Shown piece by piece: positions 10,579-21,101 of a DNA stretch of 21,101 nucleotides. Every line of letters begins with the position of its first letter. Position 1 is the stretch's first letter. Position numbers and translations under genes: made by a program. Source of the DNA: Fidelibacterota bacterium (GTDB lineage Bacteria > Fidelibacterota > UBA2242); assembly GCA_049975265.1 (NCBI GenBank), contig JBNGDF010000002.1, positions 109,205-130,305 of the forward strand, written 5' to 3'. Below the pieces are notes generated by a model that made no database searches, was not told the origin of the DNA, and saw only the letters and a list, made by a program, of their open reading frames with translations.

Positions 10579-11355
10579 GTGAAAACCCTTTGCTTTCACC
10601 TGGTCGTTCTGCTTGTGTTGGTATCGGCGATCCAATGCCCTCAACACCATGATCCCGAAGCGAAAACCAGCGACACCATCTTCCAGCTCTCTGTTCTTGA
10701 TGCTCTCATGGCGGGAATTTACAACGGTGCAATGTCCTTCGGTGAATTAAGACAATATGGTAATTTCGGACTGGGCACTTTCAATGCACTGGACGGCGAA
10801 ATGGTTACTGTCAATGATACCGTTTACCAGATTCGTGCCGATGGTACAGTATGCCGAATCGGAAACAGCGATCAGACACCCTTTGCGGTGATCACCTTTT
10901 TTACCCCAGATACAGTGATCAGGGTCGGCACGACACTGATCCGCGAGCAGATCGAAGCCTGCATTGACAAAGCGCTAATCAGCCCCAATATCCCCGTCGC
11001 AATCAAAATTACCGGCTTTTTTGAGAACGTCCGGACCCGCAGCGTGCCGCGTCAGCAGCGCCCCTATCCTCCGCTGTCCGACGTGCTGAAGACGCAACCC
11101 GAATTCGACATTCATAGTGTTTACGGTACGGTTGTCGGCTTTCGGCTGCCGCTCTATATGAAAAACATGAATGCTCCGTTGTACCATTTTCATTTTTTAA
11201 CGGCAGATCGCAGTGCGGGTGGTCATTTGCTGAACTGCAACGGAAGCGACCTCCGTATAGAACTCGACTATAAACACCATTTATCCCTGCAATTGCCCCG
11301 GGATGAGGATTTTCGCAATGTCAATTTTCAAGAAATTCCAGGCATATATCACTAA
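10579..11355 (+). CDS. budA: Alpha-acetolactate decarboxylase with signal-peptide-like N-terminus
   Basis: FQLSVLDALMAGIYNG, GNFGLGTFNALDGEM, TPFAV, RTRSVP and Zn-binding YHFHF..GGH. GTG at 10579 follows a CAGGAG RBS and is preferred over the ATG at 10531. Confidence 0.94.
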   Translation: MKTLCFHLVVLLVLVSAIQCPQHHDPEAKTSDTIFQLSVLDALMAGIYNGAMSFGELRQYGNFGLGTFNALDGEMVTVNDTVYQIRADGTVCRIGNSDQTPFAVITFFTPDTVIRVGTTLIREQIEACIDKALISPNIPVAIKITGFFENVRTRSVPRQQRPYPPLSDVLKTQPEFDIHSVYGTVVGFRLPLYMKNMNAPLYHFHFLTADRSAGGHLLNCNGSDLRIELDYKHHLSLQLPRDEDFRNVNFQEIPGIYH

Positions 11356-12748
11356 ACTGCCGTTTTTCAACCGGCTGGCCTGGAAACTGGCACTTTTCAC
11401 CGGGTTGCTTGTCATTTTGATCGTGCTGGCACTGTCGCTGCCGGTCTACTGGCTGACCCGCAATACCCTGGAAGATCAGTTGACCGATCATCTGGCGGTG
11501 AACATTACCAATTTCTCCGAGACACTCGATAAACACCTCGTGGATATTGTTATCCGGTATCCCGAACTGCAGACCATGCAGGATTCTCTGGACTATTTTC
11601 TCCGGCAAAGTCTGCAGCGCTATCCGGTCAGCGCTATTTATATTCTCGATGATCAGAATATCCTGAAAGCAGGTGCAGGCAACCGCATTCAAACGATTCA
11701 GTCTATTCTTACTCATTCAGGGGATATCAACAAAGCCCGTCGTAACGGAATCGGCTTTGCGCCGCTTTATAAAGACGATTCGGGAAAAAGTGTTAAGTCG
11801 GTGTACAAACTGTTTCAGACGGCAAACTGCTTCGGACTGATCATCGGGATGGACGCAGACGCCCAATTTTTGAAGTACACCGAGCAACTACGCCGCCGGA
11901 TCGTTGTGATTGGATTATTTGTGCTGGCGGTCTCCGTCATCGCCGTATTGATCCTGTCACAAACCCTGACCAAACCACTGCGTAATCTGACGGAATTCGC
12001 CCGTAAAATCGGTCGCGGACATGCCGATCCGTCGATACTGCGCGCCCGGCAGGACGAAATCGGCTTCCTCGGCAAAACCATGCTGGAGATGCAGCATAAA
12101 ATCCACAAACGGGAGAATGAAAACAAGGAGCTGATCGCCTCCGTCGCCCATGAAATCCGTAACCCCCTCGCCGGCATGCAGGTCAACACCGAGCTGCTTC
12201 TGGAGGCAACCAGCCGCGCGGCTGAACTTCATGCCTATGCCAAAGCCGTCGCTGCGGAAATCGAGAACCTAAGCACCATTGTCGAAAATTTTCTCGCCTA
12301 TGCGCGCCCCCTGGACACCACCCTGGAGCATCATTCACTGCGTAGCCTGATTGAGGAAAGTATCGGTGCAACCCGGCATAATTTCCCGGATAGCAATATT
12401 AAAATACACGGCGATGCAACAGCCAGAGTCAACGCACAGAAAATCAGACACGTCTTTTTCAATCTGTTGAAAAACGCCTGCGAAGCCGCCCCGGCAGCTG
12501 GTCCCATCACCGTGCGGATCAGTAAGCAGAACGATCTCATCGCCGTTGCCATTGAAAATCCGGGCGACCCGATTCCGGAAACGCACCAGTCTCAAATTTT
12601 TGAGGCTTTTTTCAGCTCCAAAGCAACCGGCGTTGGACTGGGGCTCTCCATCGCCAAATCCATCATAGAACAGCATGGCGGAACCATCCGGCTGGCGCAT
12701 TCAGATAATCGTGGCACGGAGTTTGTCATAGAATTACCTGCAGGTTAA
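11318..12748 (+). CDS. Membrane sensor histidine kinase (2 TM, periplasmic sensor, HAMP, HisKA, HATPase)
   Basis: Two TM helices flanking a periplasmic region; HAMP (KPLRNL..RQDEIGFL); H-box AHEIRNPLAG, N-box NLLKNA, F-box IFEAFF, G2 GVGLGL. Start is uncertain (11303 or 11318; GAGG precedes 11318). Confidence 0.95.
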   Translation: MSIFKKFQAYITKLPFFNRLAWKLALFTGLLVILIVLALSLPVYWLTRNTLEDQLTDHLAVNITNFSETLDKHLVDIVIRYPELQTMQDSLDYFLRQSLQRYPVSAIYILDDQNILKAGAGNRIQTIQSILTHSGDINKARRNGIGFAPLYKDDSGKSVKSVYKLFQTANCFGLIIGMDADAQFLKYTEQLRRRIVVIGLFVLAVSVIAVLILSQTLTKPLRNLTEFARKIGRGHADPSILRARQDEIGFLGKTMLEMQHKIHKRENENKELIASVAHEIRNPLAGMQVNTELLLEATSRAAELHAYAKAVAAEIENLSTIVENFLAYARPLDTTLEHHSLRSLIEESIGATRHNFPDSNIKIHGDATARVNAQKIRHVFFNLLKNACEAAPAAGPITVRISKQNDLIAVAIENPGDPIPETHQSQIFEAFFSSKATGVGLGLSIAKSIIEQHGGTIRLAHSDNRGTEFVIELPAG

Positions 12749-12749
12749 T

Positions 12750-14120
12750 ATGAACATAAGTCGCAAACAATACAGAATTCTTGTCGTGGAAGATAGCGTC
12801 TCCCTGCGGGAGGGCATCGTTGCCACCCTTCGCAAAGAGGGCTTCGCCGTTGGAGCAGCGTCAGACGGTCAGGATGGGCTGGAACAGGCGCAGTCCGGGC
12901 ACTGGCATCTGATGATTACCGACATTAAAATGCCGAAAATTGACGGCATTACTCTTTTCAAAAAAATCAAAGCCAAATTTCCGGCAACTGATGTCATCAT
13001 CATTACCGCTTACGCCACTGTCGATATTGCCGTGGATGCCATCAAATGCGGCGCTGAGGATTTTATCACCAAACCCTTTCCCCTGGCAGAACTGCGCAGC
13101 AAGGTAAACAGTCTCTATGAGCGCTGGCAGAGTCAACAGGAATCCACCCTTGAACCGTCCGGCGGGAAGCGGCTTATCGGAAGTTCCGCTGCCATAAAAA
13201 AAATCCGCAGCCTGATCCAAAAAGTCGCCGACTCCGATAGCCCCGTCCTGATTACCGGTGAAAGCGGCACGGGTAAAGAGCTGATTGCTCACACCATTCA
13301 CGATTCCAGTCAGCGTCAAAACCAGCCTTTTATCGCTGTCAATTGCGGCGCCCTGACCGAAACCCTGCTGGAGAGTGAACTCTTCGGACATGAAAAGGGC
13401 GCCTTTACCGGTGCCGTCCGCACCCATGCGGGCAAACTGGAACAGGCTTCCGGCGGAACCCTTTTTCTTGATGAAATCGGCGATATGCCCGCCTCATTAC
13501 AGGTGAAACTGCTGCGCGCCCTGCAGACCAAACAATTTCAGAGGGTCGGTGGTGAAAAGTACATTCACAGCGATTTCCGCCTGATCTCGGCGACCAACCA
13601 GCACCTCGAAGAATCCGTCAGGGAGCAGACCTTTCGCTCCGATCTCTATTACCGCATCAATGTTATCCCGATTCATGTGCCACCGCTGCGGCAGCGCAGG
13701 GAGGATATTCCCCTGCTGATCGACCATATTCTGCGGCAGCGCGCGAAAAAACTGAATCGCAGCATCCCCCGGATTCAGACCAGTGTCCTGCACAAGCTGC
13801 AGGCTTATGCCTGGCCGGGCAATATCCGCGAACTGGAAAATTTCATCGAGCGTGCCCTGGTATTTATCGAGGATAATATTTTCAGCGACGAGCTTTTTTC
13901 CTTTGATAAACAGCTGAAAAATGAAACCGCCGAGCCGCCACTCCCCAACCGGGATATGGCTGAATATATCAGCAAAATCGAACGGGAAATGATTATCAGC
14001 GCTCTGCGGGACAATCACGGCGTAAAACAGCGCGCCGCCGATCAGCTGAACATCAAGCCCGGGACACTTTACTACAAAATGGAAAAATACGGCATTGAGG
14101 AACACGAATATGAGACCTAA
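12750..14120 (+). CDS. Sigma54-dependent response regulator, NtrC/AtoC family (receiver, AAA+, Fis-type HTH)
   Basis: Receiver [15 protein letters not shown], Walker A GESGTGKE, intact GAFTGA, Walker [30 protein letters not shown]-terminal [24 protein letters not shown]. Confidence 0.97.
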
Positions 14121-15087
14121 ACGACAATTTATCCCGATTCTGATAACGCTCGCTCTGTTAGTCAGTCTGACGGCTGCCGATAACTCCCTGAAGGTGCAGC
14201 AGCAGGAGCTGGCGAATGTCCTGAGAACAATTAAAACCACCGAACAGCTGATTAGCGAACAGGACAGCGTCATTCATAAAATCGACCGAAAAATTGCAGA
14301 GTTGGAACAAACGGACAATCCCGGCTGGCTGGAACGCCGCCGAATCGTCAAACTGACCGAGGAGAAAGCAGCACTGAATGCCAAACGGCTGCGCTGTTTT
14401 GAGCAGCTGCTGGACTGGCAAAACCAGGCGCGTGACCTCTCCGCGACCATTCTGACTGAGCTAACGCAGTCCATCGATTCACTCATCGGAGCTATTAACA
14501 CCGCCGATTCCGGACAACAGCGTCAGGCAGACCTGGCAGCCCTGATCAAAGTCATCGAAATCCGCAACTGGATCATTACCACCAGACCATACTATACCCG
14601 TGTGGAAAATGAGCCGATTCCGCCGAAATTGGACATTCAGGAATTCCTCTCCCTTACACTGACAAATTCAGGCGTTAAGACCGACCTGCTCAAACTACTG
14701 AACGAAAAAATTGATGAATTGACCCTGATGATCCAATCAGCCAGAGAGGAGGAAATTCTGCGTCAGCGGCTGGAACAATTTAGTTATGAAATGGCTTCCA
14801 TCGGCGGCGAAATCGGTGAACAGACGCTGCACCCCCGACAGATCAGCAGCTCCAAAGAGACCGATGCACCCACCGGCTGGGATAATTACAGCGAAAACCG
14901 GATAAGCCCGGATTTTACAAACTGGGTACTCACCACACAAACCGAACCACTTTCCTCACTGACTGCCTACGATTACCTACCCATCATCGAATCGCTGGAT
15001 CCGGCGGAATTATCTGATTATATCTTTACGCTCGATTCACTGCGCAATTATTATATCAGCGAAAAACAGAAGATTTTAAAACCCTAA
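14110..15087 (+). CDS. Exported coiled-coil hypothetical protein
   Basis: ATG at 14110 after a GAGGA RBS, overlapping the regulator's 3' end. Sec-type signal [23 protein letters not shown]; long Leu/Ile/Glu/Gln-rich heptad helices. Confidence 0.8.
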   Translation: MRPKRQFIPILITLALLVSLTAADNSLKVQQQELANVLRTIKTTEQLISEQDSVIHKIDRKIAELEQTDNPGWLERRRIVKLTEEKAALNAKRLRCFEQLLDWQNQARDLSATILTELTQSIDSLIGAINTADSGQQRQADLAALIKVIEIRNWIITTRPYYTRVENEPIPPKLDIQEFLSLTLTNSGVKTDLLKLLNEKIDELTLMIQSAREEEILRQRLEQFSYEMASIGGEIGEQTLHPRQISSSKETDAPTGWDNYSENRISPDFTNWVLTTQTEPLSSLTAYDYLPIIESLDPAELSDYIFTLDSLRNYYISEKQKILKP

Positions 15088-15116
15088 ACATATCGGTACT
15101 TTTCCACCATTATGGA

Positions 15117-16184
15117 ATGATATTTTTACGTCAAAATTCCAGGCTTTTACAGTTTGTTTATACCACAGAGATGCTGTTGCTGTTTTCCCTGCCCCTGACA
15201 TCCCGGACAACCAGCGACTCTTCATTTTATATTAAAAATGAATATCTGATTGAATCAAATATCTTCGAAGACTCTACGGAAGCGCAGGCGCTGGGCAGTC
15301 AACTCTGGTTCGGGTTATCCCACAATTACCGTGCCAACCGGCAAACTCTCAGTCTCAAACTTGTCTCCAATCTGGTCTATTACAATCAGCACCCGGTCGA
15401 AAATAAATCGGTGAACATGCTGACCGTCCAGCACCATTACTCTCTTCTGAAACGACTGGCTTTTCAAACGGCACTGGATTTTTACAACAAGCAGTGGTAT
15501 CGAAACAATCACGGATACACCAGCAGCCGCTGTCATTCCGGATTGAGCTATGCGGGACGGAAAAATACCCTTTTCATCGGTGGCGAATACCAATATCACC
15601 GCTTTCCCCAATTCGAATCTTTTACCTCCGATTACAGTGGTCCGATTGTCCGGTTTCAGCATGCCTCCCCCGGTTCGTACATCATCACCCTGAAAACCTC
15701 CAGCCATTTCGTCCGCTATGCAGCCCGTTCAATCGCCAGTACAGCGGGCACCGATTCAGTCAACCTGCCTCTCCAGAAAGACCGGCTAACCACCTATCAG
15801 ATCGGCATTGAAAAACGGAAAAACCCGATTTTCGGGTTGCGGCTGCGCTATATCCTCGATCATTCCAACAGTCCGGGCTCCTCTTTTCAGGCAGGCGCCT
15901 GCCGCTTTTTTACTTCTCGGAAAATTCTGGGAATTTATACCCACCTGATCGTTGATCTGCAACTAAAAAAATACACGGAAAAACCTGAGCGGATGGTCAT
16001 TCTTACAAATCCCGACCCGGAGCAGAATATCCAGAATCAGGTCCTGCTCGGCTGGGACAAACCGCTGACCACGAATCTCTCCATCCAGGGCAAAGTGGCT
16101 TACATTCACAACGAAACCGTCTACAGCCGCATTTTTTACGATAAATTCCTCGCCGCCGTCGGACTGTTGTATACCATCCAATAA
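15117..16184 (+). CDS. Probable outer-membrane beta-barrel protein of unknown function
   Basis: Alternating hydrophobic/polar strands rich in Tyr, Phe and Gly (LWFGLSHNY, FIGGEYQY, YQIGIEK, VLLGWDK, IQGKVAYIHN) and terminal strand FLAAVGLLYTIQ. The signal peptide is weak and the start uncertain. Confidence 0.65.
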   Translation: MIFLRQNSRLLQFVYTTEMLLLFSLPLTSRTTSDSSFYIKNEYLIESNIFEDSTEAQALGSQLWFGLSHNYRANRQTLSLKLVSNLVYYNQHPVENKSVNMLTVQHHYSLLKRLAFQTALDFYNKQWYRNNHGYTSSRCHSGLSYAGRKNTLFIGGEYQYHRFPQFESFTSDYSGPIVRFQHASPGSYIITLKTSSHFVRYAARSIASTAGTDSVNLPLQKDRLTTYQIGIEKRKNPIFGLRLRYILDHSNSPGSSFQAGACRFFTSRKILGIYTHLIVDLQLKKYTEKPERMVILTNPDPEQNIQNQVLLGWDKPLTTNLSIQGKVAYIHNETVYSRIFYDKFLAAVGLLYTIQ

Positions 16185-16194
16185 TCCGGTAAAC

Positions 16195-16230
16195 TCTCGA
16201 TTTTCTGAGAAAATCTTCAAATATCTGAGG
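16195..16230. promoter_or_regulatory. Candidate tandem upstream activator (enhancer) sites
   Basis: TCTCGATTTTCTGAGA (16195-16210, TCTC-N8-GAGA dyad) and the related CTTCAAATATCTGAGG (16215-16230) are 20 bp apart. They overlap the dyad GATTTTCT-G-AGAAAATC (16199-16215). Confidence 0.5.
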
Positions 16231-16270
16231 GTTTTACGACATATCCATCTAAATTATCTTCACGAAAAAA

Positions 16271-16287
16271 CTGGAACGGTATTTGTC
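16271..16287 (+). promoter_or_regulatory. Candidate sigma54 (-24/-12) promoter
   Basis: CTGGAACGGTATTTGTC versus consensus YTGGCACGRNNNTTGCW: correct GG-N10-G spacing, with TTGT instead of TTGC. It is intergenic and adjacent to a sigma54 activator operon. Confidence 0.62.
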
Positions 16288-16492
16288 ATTTGTACTATGT
16301 CATGTCATTGAAGAAAACCAAGATGCTCAAAACAAAGACACGGATAATAACCCTGCATATCACGGGCAGACTGTTTGTCCCGTCTGGTCTTGTTCGGAAC
16401 CCGCTAATTTCCGTCAATTCTGATGTGCAACCGGACACCATTTCATCTCATTATGACAATCCTATTCATTTCCAATATGACAGGAGCAAACT

Positions 16493-17596
16493 ATGTTAAC
16501 CAACAGAATGTTATTGCTCGGTGTCATTCTGACGCTGAGTATAGTCGCTTTACCTGCGCAGGATCTGATTTGCAGCAGCTGTAAACAGGTGAACGATATC
16601 AACAGCAAGTTCTGCAGCAATTGCGGCGAACCGCTGGAGGATGAATACAATGCCTGGATAGTTGAGCGCAATGAACGACAGATTTATGACCACAAATTCA
16701 TTACCGGACGCGTCGATCCGCCCCGGCTGTTTACAATCCCCACCGCCGGCGTACTCGGTTCAAAAGATATCAGCCTGATGGGCGGTGGCGCCTTCGGTGT
16801 GGCAGTTCAGCAATCCTTTCTCGGGACAATCGGCATGGGCTTGGGGAATATCGCCGAAGTGGAATTCAGTACTGTCGGGCTGATCAACAATATCTCCCAC
16901 GGTTCACCCTCCGTCTCGACATCCGCATTCAAAATCCAGCTTATCCCGGAAAACCTTTTCGGCTGGCGCTTCTCTCCCCAATTGGCTGTCGCCATTCGCA
17001 GCTCCGCCGACTGGAAAAGCGTCACGAGCGATTCCAAAGCGCTGAGCGCCAATAGCGATTTTTACGTCTATAACGAGTTTACCCAGCGCAAAGAATGCGC
17101 CGTGAATGCCATCGGGTACAGCACCCGCTTCACTATTATGTACGGCGTGGCAACGCTGCCGCTGGGACCGCTGCGGATTCATAGCGGTCTGACGCTGACC
17201 GACATCCGCATTAAGGATATGAACGTCGATTACATCTGGCTGGAGGATAACAATGCTCCGAAAGAAAAGCAGAAAAACCTGATCGGTGGATTCGCCGGTT
17301 TCGAAATCGAATACAATCCCCAGACCAAGCTGATGGTGGAAGTGAAAACCGATTCCAAACATGAATATAATCTGGAAACAAAAGAGATCGAACTATCCCA
17401 CACCTATGTCGCCATAGGCGGAGTCCGGTTTTTCTTCACCAAATGGCTCTCCATTGACACCGGCGTCCTCTATCAGAGCAATTATACCGGGATTGCCGAT
17501 TCCCAGATCAAACTGGGACTGAATCTTTTCCTGCCCACCGGCAGCCTGCCGGACTACATTAAATCAACCGTTAAATCAAAAAATCGGGAGTCCTGA
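16493..17596 (+). CDS. Exported protein with N-terminal zinc-ribbon motif and YjbH-like probable beta-barrel domain
   Basis: CAGGAG RBS; signal peptide; C-x2-C-x10-C-x2-C (CSSC..CSNCG); LFTIPTAGVL resembling the YjbH-type barrel start; amphipathic strands IGGFAGFEIEY, IGGVRFFFTKWLSIDTGVLY, IKLGLNLFL. Confidence 0.7.
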   Translation: MLTNRMLLLGVILTLSIVALPAQDLICSSCKQVNDINSKFCSNCGEPLEDEYNAWIVERNERQIYDHKFITGRVDPPRLFTIPTAGVLGSKDISLMGGGAFGVAVQQSFLGTIGMGLGNIAEVEFSTVGLINNISHGSPSVSTSAFKIQLIPENLFGWRFSPQLAVAIRSSADWKSVTSDSKALSANSDFYVYNEFTQRKECAVNAIGYSTRFTIMYGVATLPLGPLRIHSGLTLTDIRIKDMNVDYIWLEDNNAPKEKQKNLIGGFAGFEIEYNPQTKLMVEVKTDSKHEYNLETKEIELSHTYVAIGGVRFFFTKWLSIDTGVLYQSNYTGIADSQIKLGLNLFLPTGSLPDYIKSTVKSKNRES

Positions 17597-17598
17597 CC

Positions 17599-18843
17599 AT
17601 GCGTAAATCAATTCTTCTGGCAACACTTACAATTGCCTTCAGCTGCATCGCCTGTTCGAATATCTTCAACAATCATGATGATGAATCAAAAAACCTTCGC
17701 GATTTGACTCCCTCCGAGATACTGCTCAAAGAATCGAGCAATGAATTCGGGCTAACGCTATTTCAGAAAATTGCGGCAACCGAAACGGATCAAAACCTCT
17801 TCATTTCACCACTCAGCGTCTCACTGGCACTGGGAATGACCGTTAACGGTGCCGCCGGTACAACCCTGAGTGCTATGCATACGACCCTGGGATTCGGCGA
17901 TTTGACCCGGCAGAAAATCAACCAATCCTACCGCAGTCTGATGGCACTATTGACAGGCATTGACTCAAAAGTGATTTTCGAAATCGCCAACTCCATCTGG
18001 TGCCGGGAGGGATTCGCGGTGCAGGACTCTTTTATCAATATAAATGAATATTATTTCGATGCCCTGGTGCGTAGTCTGGATTTCAGTCGTTCGGACGCCG
18101 CCGATATCATCAATGCCTGGGTGAAGGAGAATACAAAGAATAAAATCGAGAAAATTGTTGATGCACCGATACCCGCTGATCTGGTAATGTTTCTGATCAA
18201 TGCCATCTATTTCAAGGGCAGCTGGAAGTACGAATTCGATCCGGCACATACGGAAACAGCCCCATTTTACCAGACCAGCGAAAGAACCAGTGACTGTCAG
18301 CTGATGACCTATCGGTGCAAATTGCCCTATTTCAGCACCGATCAATTCCAGGCGGTTAACCTGCCCTATGGTGACGGCGCCTTTCGAATGATAGTAATTC
18401 TACCCGCCTACGACCATGATATTGACGAATTCATTGCCGATCTCGACTATGCCACCTGGAAGGCCTGGCTGGATCAGCTGGAGCCCACGGAAATCAATCT
18501 TTATCTGCCCAAATTCAAACTGGAATATGAAAATGAACTAAAGGACGATCTCAGCGCTTTGGGCATGGCGGTTGCCTTCGATCCCAATGTCGCTGACTTC
18601 ACCGGAATCAACCCCGAAGTGCAGCTCTACATCAGCAAGGTCAAACACAAAACCTTCGTTGATGTCAATGAAGAGGGCACCGAAGCCGCAGCGGTGACTT
18701 CCGTGGAAGTGGTGCTCACCTCCGGGGGTGATTCGGGACCAACCATGCGGATTGACCGCCCGTTCGTTTTTGCGATACATGAAATCAACAGCGGCACGAT
18801 TCTGTTTATGGGAAAAATCGTGAAACCGGAATACGAAGAGTAA
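17599..18843 (+). CDS. Serpin (serine protease inhibitor), predicted lipoprotein
   Basis: NLFISPLSVSLALGM, INAWVKENTKNKI, LINAIYFKGSW, LPKFKL, hinge EEGTEAAAVT, IDRPFVFAI, LFMGKI. The signal peptide ends in AFSC/IAC lipobox-like motifs. Confidence 0.97.
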   Translation: MRKSILLATLTIAFSCIACSNIFNNHDDESKNLRDLTPSEILLKESSNEFGLTLFQKIAATETDQNLFISPLSVSLALGMTVNGAAGTTLSAMHTTLGFGDLTRQKINQSYRSLMALLTGIDSKVIFEIANSIWCREGFAVQDSFININEYYFDALVRSLDFSRSDAADIINAWVKENTKNKIEKIVDAPIPADLVMFLINAIYFKGSWKYEFDPAHTETAPFYQTSERTSDCQLMTYRCKLPYFSTDQFQAVNLPYGDGAFRMIVILPAYDHDIDEFIADLDYATWKAWLDQLEPTEINLYLPKFKLEYENELKDDLSALGMAVAFDPNVADFTGINPEVQLYISKVKHKTFVDVNEEGTEAAAVTSVEVVLTSGGDSGPTMRIDRPFVFAIHEINSGTILFMGKIVKPEYEE

Positions 18844-18859
18844 ATCAAGGAGCAAAACG

Positions 18860-20626
18860 ATGCAAAAAGCAGCTATTCTTTTTACAATAATCATGCTTAC
18901 GTCAGTACTTTACGCCGATGTACCAACGACGCTGACCCGTCAACCCGGTGTTCCCTATTTTCTGGAGCCTTATCTCTTTAAAACCATCGAGATGAATCTT
19001 TTCACCAGCGATGTGAGCGGTATGCTGATTGACGATTACGGCGATCTGGCTTGGAATCCCGCCTTTCTGGGACACCTGCAAAACCGCAAAATCTACCTTG
19101 ATCTGGATTTCGGGAATCTTGCTCAATCCAGCCAACATTACTCCTATTACACCAGCGCCGATTATCGCGTCTATCCCGCCTGGTATCAGCAGACCTACAT
19201 TTCCGGCATCCAGACCACGCCGCTTTACAATCTTGCTTTGCTTTTGCCCGTTTCAAAGCGATTGAAAATCGGACTCATCAACCGGTCAAATTTTGACTAC
19301 GGTCCTTTTCGGGAAACCTATTACTGGGATTACCGGGCAATCGAGGACAATTCCTATATGGATTACGCCAGGATTATGAACGACCTGGAGCCGCAACGGC
19401 TGGAGGTTGATGAGAACCAGCAGACTGTGTACAGCCTACAGACCGATCTGATGCTCGCTTACCAATGGACCTACCGTTTGTATCTGGGACTCAAAATCGG
19501 CAATTATCTCTTTCGACGGGACGGTGAACTCTACGACTCCAAATGGGGCATCTATCCCCACTCGGAATTCGCCGACCTGAACGACGAGGAGCTCTTTATC
19601 AGCGGCGATCAATATACGCTGGGGTTCGGACTCATCTTCCAGGCAAATGAGAAGACCAGCTGGGGCGCCTATGGCGAGCTGATCACCGGTCAGTCCAGCG
19701 AAGAATCTTCGTCCCTGGACACCTCCTACTCCTGGTCGGAGCGGGATACCGATCCCGATTATTTCAGCTATTATGATTATGACATGACGATGAATCAGAC
19801 CTGTGACGCCGATGCAAATCGCAAAACGCTGACATTGACTTATCAGAAAAAAATCTCCGGACGGCTGACCCTCCGCTCTTTTCTGAAATACTCCACCTTG
19901 AAATCCGATCTCGGATTGGTCTCTGCCAGCGAAGATACCACCTTCCGGGACAGAACCTACGACACGTACGATGACGGCAACTACTATTTTCAGAGATATA
20001 TCTATCATGCCGCCCGCCGGCAGAACTTCGACGGTACGGGCACCAAAAACAGCGACTCCTGGCACTGGTTCATTTCTCTGGTCTATCATCCTGAAGACGA
20101 CTGGTCGCTGTTTAGCGGAATGCAGCTCACCCGGCAGCATAACAAGACGGAAACCAGAGATGAATCGAACTACTATTCGGCGTCGGACAATACCTATCAA
20201 CATTATGATCCCCACACCTTCGCCTATCTGGATACCCATGACAAATATTACGAGTACACCGCCGAATCCGAGCAGTTCTCGGTTCATATTCCCCTTGGAC
20301 TAAAAATACAGGTTGTCAGCGGATTCCACCTGATTTTCGCCGGCGAAATGCACTACTATCTGACCGACAGCCGGCAGAAGGGTCGCCTGTTGTATCCGGA
20401 AATCGTTTCAAAGACCTGGCAAAACGGCAGTCTCGTCGTGGATGATCTCGAGGAGAATCGCTACGAGGAGTATTCCTCGCAGCCGGCGAAAGATTTCCAG
20501 CGCAGTTCAAATATCAATATCGGCTTCGCCTACCGGCATTCTTCGGGAATTGATTTGTATGTGCGCTCGGTGGGCAACCTGCTGGACACTGCCGGTTGGG
20601 ATATAGGCATTGAATACAGTTTTTAA
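18860..20626 (+). CDS. Probable outer-membrane beta-barrel protein (FadL/PorV-like NPA motif), Tyr/Asp-rich
   Basis: AAGGAG RBS; signal MQKAAILFTIIMLTSVLYA; DLAWNPAFLG near the N-terminus; many amphipathic strands; C-terminal beta-signal WDIGIEYSF ending in Phe. Confidence 0.72.
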   Translation: MQKAAILFTIIMLTSVLYADVPTTLTRQPGVPYFLEPYLFKTIEMNLFTSDVSGMLIDDYGDLAWNPAFLGHLQNRKIYLDLDFGNLAQSSQHYSYYTSADYRVYPAWYQQTYISGIQTTPLYNLALLLPVSKRLKIGLINRSNFDYGPFRETYYWDYRAIEDNSYMDYARIMNDLEPQRLEVDENQQTVYSLQTDLMLAYQWTYRLYLGLKIGNYLFRRDGELYDSKWGIYPHSEFADLNDEELFISGDQYTLGFGLIFQANEKTSWGAYGELITGQSSEESSSLDTSYSWSERDTDPDYFSYYDYDMTMNQTCDADANRKTLTLTYQKKISGRLTLRSFLKYSTLKSDLGLVSASEDTTFRDRTYDTYDDGNYYFQRYIYHAARRQNFDGTGTKNSDSWHWFISLVYHPEDDWSLFSGMQLTRQHNKTETRDESNYYSASDNTYQHYDPHTFAYLDTHDKYYEYTAESEQFSVHIPLGLKIQVVSGFHLIFAGEMHYYLTDSRQKGRLLYPEIVSKTWQNGSLVVDDLEENRYEEYSSQPAKDFQRSSNINIGFAYRHSSGIDLYVRSVGNLLDTAGWDIGIEYSF

Positions 20627-20721: not shown

Positions 20722-21101
20722 ATGAATAATAAGAGATGTCCGGTTGTACTTATTTTCGTTACCGTTGTTTTTCAATTTTCCTTCGCAGCCGCGCAAATGA
20801 TCGCCGATATCACTGCCGACATCGAAACCGAATTTGGAACCTATTATCCCTATCCGGTCGAATTTACGCAGGCAGTGCCCTCTTTCACCGTCGAACCCGA
20901 CTTCAGTAATGTCGAAAACTGGTCAGTCACCTACGGATTCAGCGCCGTCGATTCCATGCTGCTGCAACAAAACCATTTCACTGTGAGAAAAAGCCGGTTC
21001 ACCCAGATGTACGATATCTACAATGATTGCACCTGGGGCGGAACACCGATTTTCGTGACCACCGATGCGGTTTTACATATCTATCACCTGCTGTTCGATC
21101 A
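20722..21101 (+). CDS. DUF3160-like exported protein, 5' part only (runs off the window; absent from the ORF track)
   Basis: AAGGAG RBS, ATG at 20722, frame open to the window end: MNNKRCPVVLIFVTVVFQFSFAAAQ (signal)..LLQQNHFTV..MYDIY..TPIFVTTDAVLHIYHLLFD, matching the PxF[IV]TxDxxLHxYHxxFD pattern I associate with DUF3160. Confidence 0.82.
   Translation, partial: MNNKRCPVVLIFVTVVFQFSFAAAQMIADITADIETEFGTYYPYPVEFTQAVPSFTVEPDFSNVENWSVTYGFSAVDSMLLQQNHFTVRKSRFTQMYDIYNDCTWGGTPIFVTTDAVLHIYHLLFD

What the first reader, a model, noticed from the sequence alone, without database searches (positions are those of the whole stretch)
11318..20626. Candidate undescribed sigma54-dependent envelope/protease-defence module: kinase, enhancer-binding protein, coiled coil and barrel driving a serpin operon
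Seen: a tightly packed operon of HAMP kinase, GAFTGA activator, exported coiled-coil protein and probable OM barrel, with gaps of 1 nt, an 11-nt overlap and 29 nt. It is followed by an intergenic region with tandem dyads and a -24/-12 motif, then a zinc-ribbon/YjbH-like barrel, a lipoprotein serpin and an NPA-motif barrel, with gaps of 2 and 16 nt. Established: NtrC-family activators often control a sigma54 promoter next to their own genes, and serpins are suicide inhibitors of proteases. Inference: the block senses an envelope or extracellular cue, possibly proteolytic attack, and induces a surface-anchored protease inhibitor plus OM partners. I know of no described system with this composition.
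Basis: partly seen in the sequence, partly recalled or inferred. Interest (0 to 1): 0.8.

Follow-up and report, generated by a model that had tools for sequence, protein, structure and literature searches.

The report
Barrel-plugged protease sensor driving serpin genes
This conserved four-gene sensor is likely the counterpart of the Myxococcus A-signal system (SasS, SasR, SasN); its accessory protein is predicted to plug an outer-membrane barrel and may display a cuttable loop, so that outside proteases would switch on a protease inhibitor and other surface proteins.

Summary
In this Marinisomatota genome a HAMP kinase, a GAFTGA activator, an exported helical protein (CC) and a predicted 16-strand barrel (B1) precede two 12-bp dyads and a -24/-12 motif, then a serpin operon. 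Core order, dyads and motif recur across the phylum, and the motif pair is the best match in the genome. The -12 T is normal for this class (27 of 30 groES regions). The serpin is common but not obligatory: targets are a varying set of surface proteins. 'Undescribed' is probably wrong. CC is homologous to myxobacterial proteins mis-named 'TetR', most likely SasN, which lies after sasR and before a barrel-sized gene; the A-signal reporter spiA is a serpin. I never saw the SasN sequence itself. New here: the system occurs far outside myxobacteria, and a complex model puts CC's conserved helix inside the barrel (0.76 vs best control 0.00; mark met by 116 of 157 solved and 2 of 215 mismatched pairs), next to a disordered, variable loop. 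Best model (inferred): a protease-bait sensor spanning the envelope. This would make the A-signal receptor question directly testable.

The parts
11318..12748 (+). Sensor histidine kinase (likely SasS counterpart): two TM segments, about 150-aa periplasmic domain, HAMP, HisKA, HATPase; start codon uncertain (frame open from 11303)
12750..14120 (+). Sigma54 enhancer-binding response regulator with GAFTGA (likely SasR counterpart)
14110..15087 (+). CC: exported all-helical protein, likely SasN homolog; no Pfam or NCBIfam family
14746..14817 (+). CC residues 213-236, conserved helix predicted to sit in the lumen of barrel B1
14818..14964 (+). CC residues 237-285, disordered and variable loop; proposed protease bait (inferred)
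15117..16184 (+). B1: predicted 16-stranded outer-membrane barrel with no plug of its own
16197..16208 (.). Distal 12-bp dyad (consensus TCAGA-NN-TCTGA), likely activator site
16217..16228 (.). Proximal 12-bp dyad, 20 bp after the first
16272..16286 (+). -24/-12 sigma54-type motif with T at -12; start site expected near 16298, not mapped
16493..17596 (+). ZnB: exported protein with N-terminal four-Cys ribbon and a beta-rich body; optional target
17599..18843 (+). Lipoprotein serpin with an inhibitory-type hinge; the closest solved structures are miropin entries
18860..20626 (+). B3: NPA-motif exported protein, probable barrel (not folded here); frequent target
20722..21101 (+). DUF3160 protein with type IX sorting tail, runs off the window; likely the next gene of the operon

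Best explanation
The block is likely a homolog of the Myxococcus SasS-SasR-SasN system, in which the SasN-like protein CC is predicted to plug barrel B1, likely holds the kinase off while intact, and would release it when outside proteases cut its exposed loop, so that the activator would induce the serpin operon from the conserved enhancer and sigma54-type promoter. Shown: gene content and order, the conserved dyads and -24/-12 motif, and homology of CC to 342-357 aa myxobacterial 'TetR' proteins. Predicted: the 16-strand barrel, CC helix 213-236 in its lumen, disorder of loop 237-285. Inferred: that those myxobacterial proteins are SasN (about 0.85); that the helix points outward so the loop reaches the outer face; that the long N-terminal hairpin contacts the kinase; that cleavage is the signal (about 0.5). 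The output is a varying set of surface proteins (serpins, YfbK-type VWA lipoprotein, ZnB, B3, DUF3160), of which the serpin would shut off the inducing protease.
For: Core conserved in the order: activator and CC in 20 of 20 loci, B1 in 19, kinase ORF recovered in 18, serpin downstream in 15. Outside the class, kinase and activator lie upstream of B1 in 19 of 20 loci. Tandem dyads score at least 16 of 20 in 19 of those 20, and the best pair is spaced 20 bp in all 20. A metagenome locus has kinase-activator-serpin-CC behind the same dyads. Tandem dyads precede serpin loci in 3 of 9 barrel-bearing genomes, two of them on another contig than the barrel, against 0 of 11 genomes without a barrel match. 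CC profile against the myxobacterial profile: probability 97.3%, E 1.9e-11; through an intermediate group 99.3% and 99.7%; reversed controls 3.3% at most. In M. xanthus, sasN is MXAN_1244, 'TetR family', 1047 bp, next to sasR and followed on the same strand by a 373-aa hypothetical gene; spiA is a serpin (PMC6791715 supplements). It is the only one of 31 'TetR' genes near that size. sasN and spiA rise about 10-fold and 70-fold at 6 h. Complex model of B1 with CC: 0.76 against best control 0.00; the mark was met by 116 of 157 solved and 2 of 215 mismatched pairs (counts only rough with my alignments); runs agree in at least 67% of contacts; partner pLDDT at least 63. The loop has pLDDT under 50, column conservation 0.26 against 0.50 at the interface, and is 37-55 aa here and 49-95 aa in myxobacteria. 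Precedent: a protease-induced two-component system controls the B. breve serpin (PMC8012564).
Against: The SasN, SasS and SasR sequences were not seen; the identification rests on name, size, position and target. A second annotation gives MXAN_RS06010 as 1092 bp. Nothing here tests CC-kinase contact, cleavage, RpoN dependence or expression. Barrel residues at the predicted interface are hardly more conserved than the rest (0.45 against 0.42). The loop's position was read from strand order, not from coordinates. Family f7 has the barrel in 13 of 26 genomes and no serpin in 26; family f8 has serpins in 26 of 33 and no barrel match in 33. Outside the class a serpin was among the genes shown after B1 in only 2 of 20 loci. 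Six of 9 serpin loci in barrel-bearing genomes lack a clear tandem site (one borderline, one truncated). A review says SasS detects amino acids and peptides (PMC4880591), which a pure cleavage model does not explain.
Confidence: 0.5

Rival explanations
1. Envelope-integrity monitor, like Rcs: the same parts, but the signal is failed assembly or displacement of the CC-barrel complex when the outer membrane is damaged. The serpin is one of several protective outputs.
For: Targets are mostly outer-membrane and surface proteins, and f7 genomes carry the barrel with no serpin. The predicted CC-in-barrel arrangement resembles RcsF threaded in porins (recalled). O-antigen mutants of M. xanthus raise spi expression (recalled, paper not read).
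Against: It does not explain a long loop kept disordered and variable in three lineages, nor the repeated choice of serpins, up to three tandem copies with different reactive loops.
Confidence: 0.25
2. Peptide or amino-acid sensing: the kinase's periplasmic domain binds small products of proteolysis, B1 is their gated channel, and CC is only a brake or plug.
For: A-signal is described as amino acids and peptides detected by SasS (PMC4880591). B1's fold matches are general porins and Omp85-type barrels. The kinase has a conserved periplasmic domain.
Against: In the model the lumen is occupied by the CC helix. Among the Pfam-scanned downstream genes none is a peptide transporter or peptidase.
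Confidence: 0.15
3. B1 is a Slam-like translocon that exports the lipoprotein serpin and other cargo, with CC as its periplasmic partner; it is not part of sensing.
For: Atlas look-alikes include a cluster with SlipAM in 32% of members, at rank 16. Many targets look like lipoproteins.
Against: The model has 16 strands, whereas Slam has 14 (recalled). B1 has no Pfam SlipAM match. B1 stays with the kinase and activator upstream of the promoter, not with the cargo. MXAN_1242 expression is flat while spiA is induced.
Confidence: 0.07
4. The genes are neighbours by descent only and the promoter motif is incidental.
For: Kin share gene order, and serpin and barrel distributions differ across the phylum.
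Against: The same dyads and motif recur in other classes and in metagenome loci, and stay with the serpin operon when it is separated from the core.
Confidence: 0.03

Closest known systems
Myxococcus xanthus SasS (MXAN_1249) - SasR (MXAN_1245) - SasN (MXAN_1244) with target spiA (MXAN_4276, serpin)
   Same: Kinase (497 aa there, 476 here), sigma54 activator (469, 456), an accessory protein of about 350 aa directly after the activator, a downstream gene of about 370 aa, and a serpin as output. CC is homologous to the myxobacterial 'TetR' proteins of that size.
   Different: Here the four genes are contiguous and the serpin operon is adjacent; there sasS is three genes away and spiA is unlinked. 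These bacteria are not known to form fruiting bodies. I found no paper giving the barrel a role or placing SasN in a barrel (searches; primary sas papers not held).
Bifidobacterium breve protease-inducible two-component system next to its serpin operon (SerRK, name recalled)
   Same: A two-component system beside a serpin operon, induced by proteases (PMC8012564 passages).
   Different: Monoderm host with no outer membrane; no sigma54 activator, barrel or SasN-like protein is mentioned in the passages read. An analogy, not tested as homology.
Miropin, lipoprotein serpin of Tannerella forsythia
   Same: Top solved-structure matches to the serpin profile (E 6e-124 to 1e-109); lipoprotein; surface-exposed and broad in range (10.1101/2025.09.05.674453 passages).
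   Different: No such regulatory module is described for it in the passages read; several relatives here carry two or three serpins with different reactive loops.
RcsF-porin complexes, QseEGF, ZraP-ZraSR, CpxP (all recalled)
   Same: An envelope accessory protein controls a kinase; RcsF sits in a barrel; QseF and ZraR are sigma54 activators.
   Different: CC has no Pfam or NCBIfam match to any of them, and a dedicated barrel is encoded in the operon.

Membership tests
NtrC-family sigma54 two-component system | Receiver, AAA+ domain with GAFTGA, and Fis-type HTH, next to a HisKA kinase | tested here: met
NtrC-family sigma54 two-component system | rpoN in the genome and a -24/-12 motif with upstream dyad sites | tested here: met
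   -12 is T, as in 27 of 30 groES regions of the class
NtrC-family sigma54 two-component system | Transcription depends on RpoN and on this activator | not testable with these tools
   no expression data obtained
Sas system (SasS-SasR-SasN-spiA) | Accessory protein homologous to SasN | tested here: inconclusive
   Homology to myxobacterial 342-357 aa 'TetR' proteins shown; their identity with MXAN_1244 rests on name, size and position; sequence not seen
Sas system (SasS-SasR-SasN-spiA) | Gene order activator then accessory protein, with a kinase nearby | tested here: met
Sas system (SasS-SasR-SasN-spiA) | Kinase and activator orthologous to SasS and SasR | not tested
   no myxobacterial locus could be fetched (searches found none)
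Sas system (SasS-SasR-SasN-spiA) | A serpin gene as target | tested here: met
   Serpin behind the promoter here and in 15 of 20 order loci; not universal
Sas system (SasS-SasR-SasN-spiA) | Accessory protein acts as a negative regulator | not testable with these tools
   for SasN only the paper title was seen
Inhibitory serpin | Full serpin domain with small-residue hinge before the reactive loop | tested here: met
   PF00079 positions 2-370; hinge columns E358, G360, E362, A363-A365 invariant in 22 sequences
Slam / SlipAM translocon | 14-stranded barrel with TPR domain (recalled) | tested here: not met
   16 strands in a model of pLDDT 87 and no TPR part; no Pfam match
TetR regulators (database name of the myxobacterial homologs) | N-terminal TetR helix-turn-helix, about 200 aa, cytoplasmic | tested here: not met
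   No precomputed Pfam domain, no TetR model in NCBIfam, signal-peptide-like N-termini
YjbH-like (ZnB) and FadL/TodX-like (B3) barrels | Sequence or fold match to those families | tested here: inconclusive
   No Pfam or PDB sequence match; not folded

The most novel reading that the evidence does not exclude
A widespread envelope-spanning protease alarm: a SasN-family helical protein plugs its own 16-strand barrel, shows a disordered bait loop at the surface and holds a kinase off until an outside protease cuts the loop. Myxobacteria co-opted this alarm as their A-signal receiver, so SasN with MXAN_1242 is the missing receptor for the protease component of A-signal.
Probability: 0.4. Interest if true: 0.92.

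Novelty: new variant of a known kind. Interest (0 to 1): 0.78.

Why it matters
[quoted passage not shown] This locus suggests that the Sas genes are part of a four-gene module shared with Marinisomatota and KSB1-related bacteria. It names a fourth component (the barrel, likely MXAN_1242) and recasts SasN, listed as a TetR one-component regulator, as an exported protein. It also gives the likely activator site and a concrete, cheap test in a tractable organism. If the bait model is right, it is a new way for a diderm cell to sense proteases that cannot cross its outer membrane.

Tried and rejected
Pfam and NCBIfam name neither CC, B1 nor B3. Foldseek gave CC no match at E 0.001. B1 matched 16-strand barrels only generically (best Z 18.7, rmsd 4.9, 279 aligned, CdiB; DcaP and porins close behind), so no family was assigned. 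The Slam reading was rejected on strand number. The barrel after another kinase-activator pair on contig C26 did not align to B1 (probability 1.5%). No paralog of CC, B1, ZnB, serpin or B3 was found in the genome, and no second strong enhancer-promoter composite. No dyad pair with a -24/-12 motif was found upstream of the kinase in the window or 16 relatives, so autoregulation is not supported in this order. No myxobacterial locus could be fetched (plasmids, viral contigs). The primary sas, spi and A-signal papers were not held; what I say of their content is recalled or from titles. Supplements of PMC3222651 could not be read and may list MXAN_1242 as a barrel. Three supplement files of PMC8561891 were not searched. 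No RNA data were obtained, so the start site and expression stay open. CC-kinase binding was not modelled because the one complex job went to CC with B1. Earlier findings of the scan: nothing.
Full report
Setting. The window is G000:C2:109205-130305. Close homologs are labelled Marinimicrobia or Neomarinimicrobiota. The genome is 95% complete and has one rpoN match.

Observation. I call the 14110 protein CC, the 15117 protein B1, the 16493 protein ZnB and the 18860 protein B3. None of the four reaches a Pfam or NCBIfam cut-off for its main body. A DUF3160 protein with a type IX tail follows B3 after 95 nt.

Conservation in the order. CC was found in 32 of 301 phylum genomes with the single protein, all in this order. 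I fetched 20 of the 33 matches outside this genome. Activator and CC are in 20 of 20, B1 in 19, and a kinase ORF was recovered in 18. A serpin follows on the same stretch in 15; three stretches end at a contig edge first; two have other genes. Serpins occur in 38 of 42 order genomes and ZnB in 20 of 42. The first gene after the promoter may be a serpin, a small Cys-rich lipoprotein or ZnB.

The promoter. Behind B1, 16 of 18 relatives examined have TGG(A/C)A-N6-TTG within 900 nt (one locus ending 27 nt after B1 was left out). A seventeenth has it further on, past an insertion. Two 12-bp dyads, 20-21 bp apart, sit upstream. The composite is the top site in the genome, 55.3 against 29.1, and arose in 0 of 10,000 shuffles. 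The T at -12 departs from the recalled consensus TTGC but is the norm here: 27 of 30 groES upstream regions carry the motif, all with T. In two genomes where the serpin operon is on another contig than the core, dyads and motif stay in front of it.

Beyond the order. A B1 profile hits 63 of 301 phylum genomes. Of 33 outside the class I fetched 20. Kinase and activator lie upstream in 19; CC was scored in 16; in three more my ORF picker chose other frames in a CC-sized gap; one has other genes. The best dyad pair after B1 is spaced exactly 20 bp in all 20, scores at least 16 of 20 in 19, and is followed by a -24/-12 motif in 13. The targets vary: a YfbK-type VWA protein is the first same-strand gene in 9, B3 and ZnB recur, and a serpin is among the genes shown in 2. 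Family f7 has B1 in 13 of 26 genomes and no serpin; f8 has serpins in 26 of 33 and no B1 match. Tandem dyads precede 3 of 9 serpin loci from B1-bearing genomes and 0 of 11 from genomes without a B1 match; the numbers are small and kin are not independent. Seven metagenome loci from a distant CC group show CC then B1 in six (two nearly identical). The seventh reads kinase-activator-serpin-CC. The same dyads with a -24/-12 motif lie before the kinase in two of them, read by eye.

The Sas link. A CC profile found 70 proteins among 1.84 billion, including one from KSB1 and a group that led to 35 proteins. Six of these, from Myxococcus, Corallococcus and relatives, are named 'TetR family transcriptional regulator' at 342-357 aa. 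They have signal-like N-termini and no TetR model. Profile comparison links them to CC (97.3%, E 1.9e-11; 99.3% and 99.7% through the intermediate group; reversed controls 3.3% at most). In supplement tables of PMC6791715, SasN is MXAN_1244, 'TetR family', 1047 bp. It follows sasR, and a 373-aa hypothetical gene, MXAN_1242, comes next on that strand. sasS is MXAN_1249 and spiA is annotated serpin. Of 31 genes so named, 29 are 513-780 bp, one is 1893 bp, and only SasN fits. B1's nearest Atlas clusters are mostly Myxococcota, 347-365 aa. The SasN sequence itself was not seen, so this is a strong inference, not a direct match.

Structure. B1 folds as a 16-stranded barrel, pLDDT 87, with generic matches only. 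CC is all-helical with residues 233-282 unresolved, pTM 0.50. The B1-CC complex scored 0.76 against a best control of 0.00. The mark was met by 116 of 157 solved and 2 of 215 mismatched pairs, counts that hold only roughly with my own alignments. The runs agree in at least 67% of contacts and the partner's pLDDT is at least 63. CC 213-236 and 298-303 touch alternate residues on most strands, which points to the lumen. Reading contacts against strand order, the helix runs from the periplasmic rim outward, so the loop would lie toward the outer face; this is my inference. That helix's pattern is kept in the myxobacterial proteins. CC's interface is more conserved than the rest (0.50 against 0.37); B1's barely is (0.45 against 0.42).

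Mechanism. Most likely CC spans the envelope: one helix in the barrel, the long hairpin with its conserved tip toward the kinase, and the loop exposed as bait. Cutting it would free the kinase, and the activator would induce serpins and other surface proteins. This fits the title-level claim that SasN prevents developmental expression during growth. It also fits the co-induction of sasN with spiA, which would replace a consumed sensor, and the B. breve precedent. I give the bait model 0.5, an envelope-integrity monitor 0.25, peptide sensing 0.15 and lipoprotein export 0.07.

What I read. PMC6791715: passages and supplement rows. PMC8561891: supplement rows. PMC4880591, PMC8012564, PMC3162934, PMC8570273, PMC11980068, 10.64898/2026.08.28.747804 and 10.1101/2025.09.05.674453: passages. 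PMC3222651: one term search, nothing relevant. The original sas and spi papers: titles only; the sigma54 nature of the spi promoter and the O-antigen effect are recalled. Searches found no paper describing the barrel, the wider distribution or the dyad; most subscription journals were not covered.

Verdict. A real, widely conserved module; a new variant of a known but mechanistically unresolved system. Interest 0.78.

Noticed in passing
G000:C10:33476, C2:83239; loci L083-L112: A sigma54-type motif with T at -12 lies before groES in 27 of 30 class genomes examined and before dnaK in this genome. This suggests chaperone operons under sigma54 and a lineage-specific -12 preference; RpoN's first helix-turn-helix reads DISTISR.
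   Followed up: partly
G000:C4:150149, C2:186988, C1:51130: Further intergenic TTGT-type -24/-12 motifs: before a gene that looks like methylmalonyl-CoA mutase (by eye), before a 689-aa oxidoreductase-like gene, and before an operon ending in a kinase-activator pair.
   Followed up: no
L113:1260-6389 (G000:C26): A second module of similar layout: kinase, sigma54 activator, -24/-12 motif, a 188-aa exported protein (weak LTXXQ and DUF3106 hits) and a 381-aa probable barrel that did not align to B1.
   Followed up: partly
window:16359-16472: Weak match (41% over 39 aa, E 0.03) to the small Cys-rich lipoprotein that relatives carry between promoter and ZnB; possibly a relic of the lost gene. That lipoprotein family has no Pfam match.
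   Followed up: partly
window:10531-11355: Acetolactate decarboxylase homolog with a signal-like N-terminus overlapping the kinase start by 38 nt; near the kinase in three same-genus relatives only.
   Followed up: no
window:1-6904: Type IV pilus minor-pilin, prepilin peptidase, PilM-N-O and secretin cluster, followed by two stand-alone receiver proteins; not part of the module.
   Followed up: no
L042 and L037 (G138); L124, L125, L151 (G022): G138 has two copies of the core, one without promoter or serpin behind it; in G022 the core and the serpin operon are on different contigs.
   Followed up: partly
M. xanthus MXAN_4277 (PMC6791715 supplement): An S1 peptidase gene follows spiA and is induced about 10-fold with it: a candidate protease for positive feedback or for the serpin's target.
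   Followed up: no
L169-L188: YfbK-type VWA lipoproteins are the commonest first target outside the class (9 of 20), tying this family of unknown function to the same regulon as serpins.
   Followed up: partly
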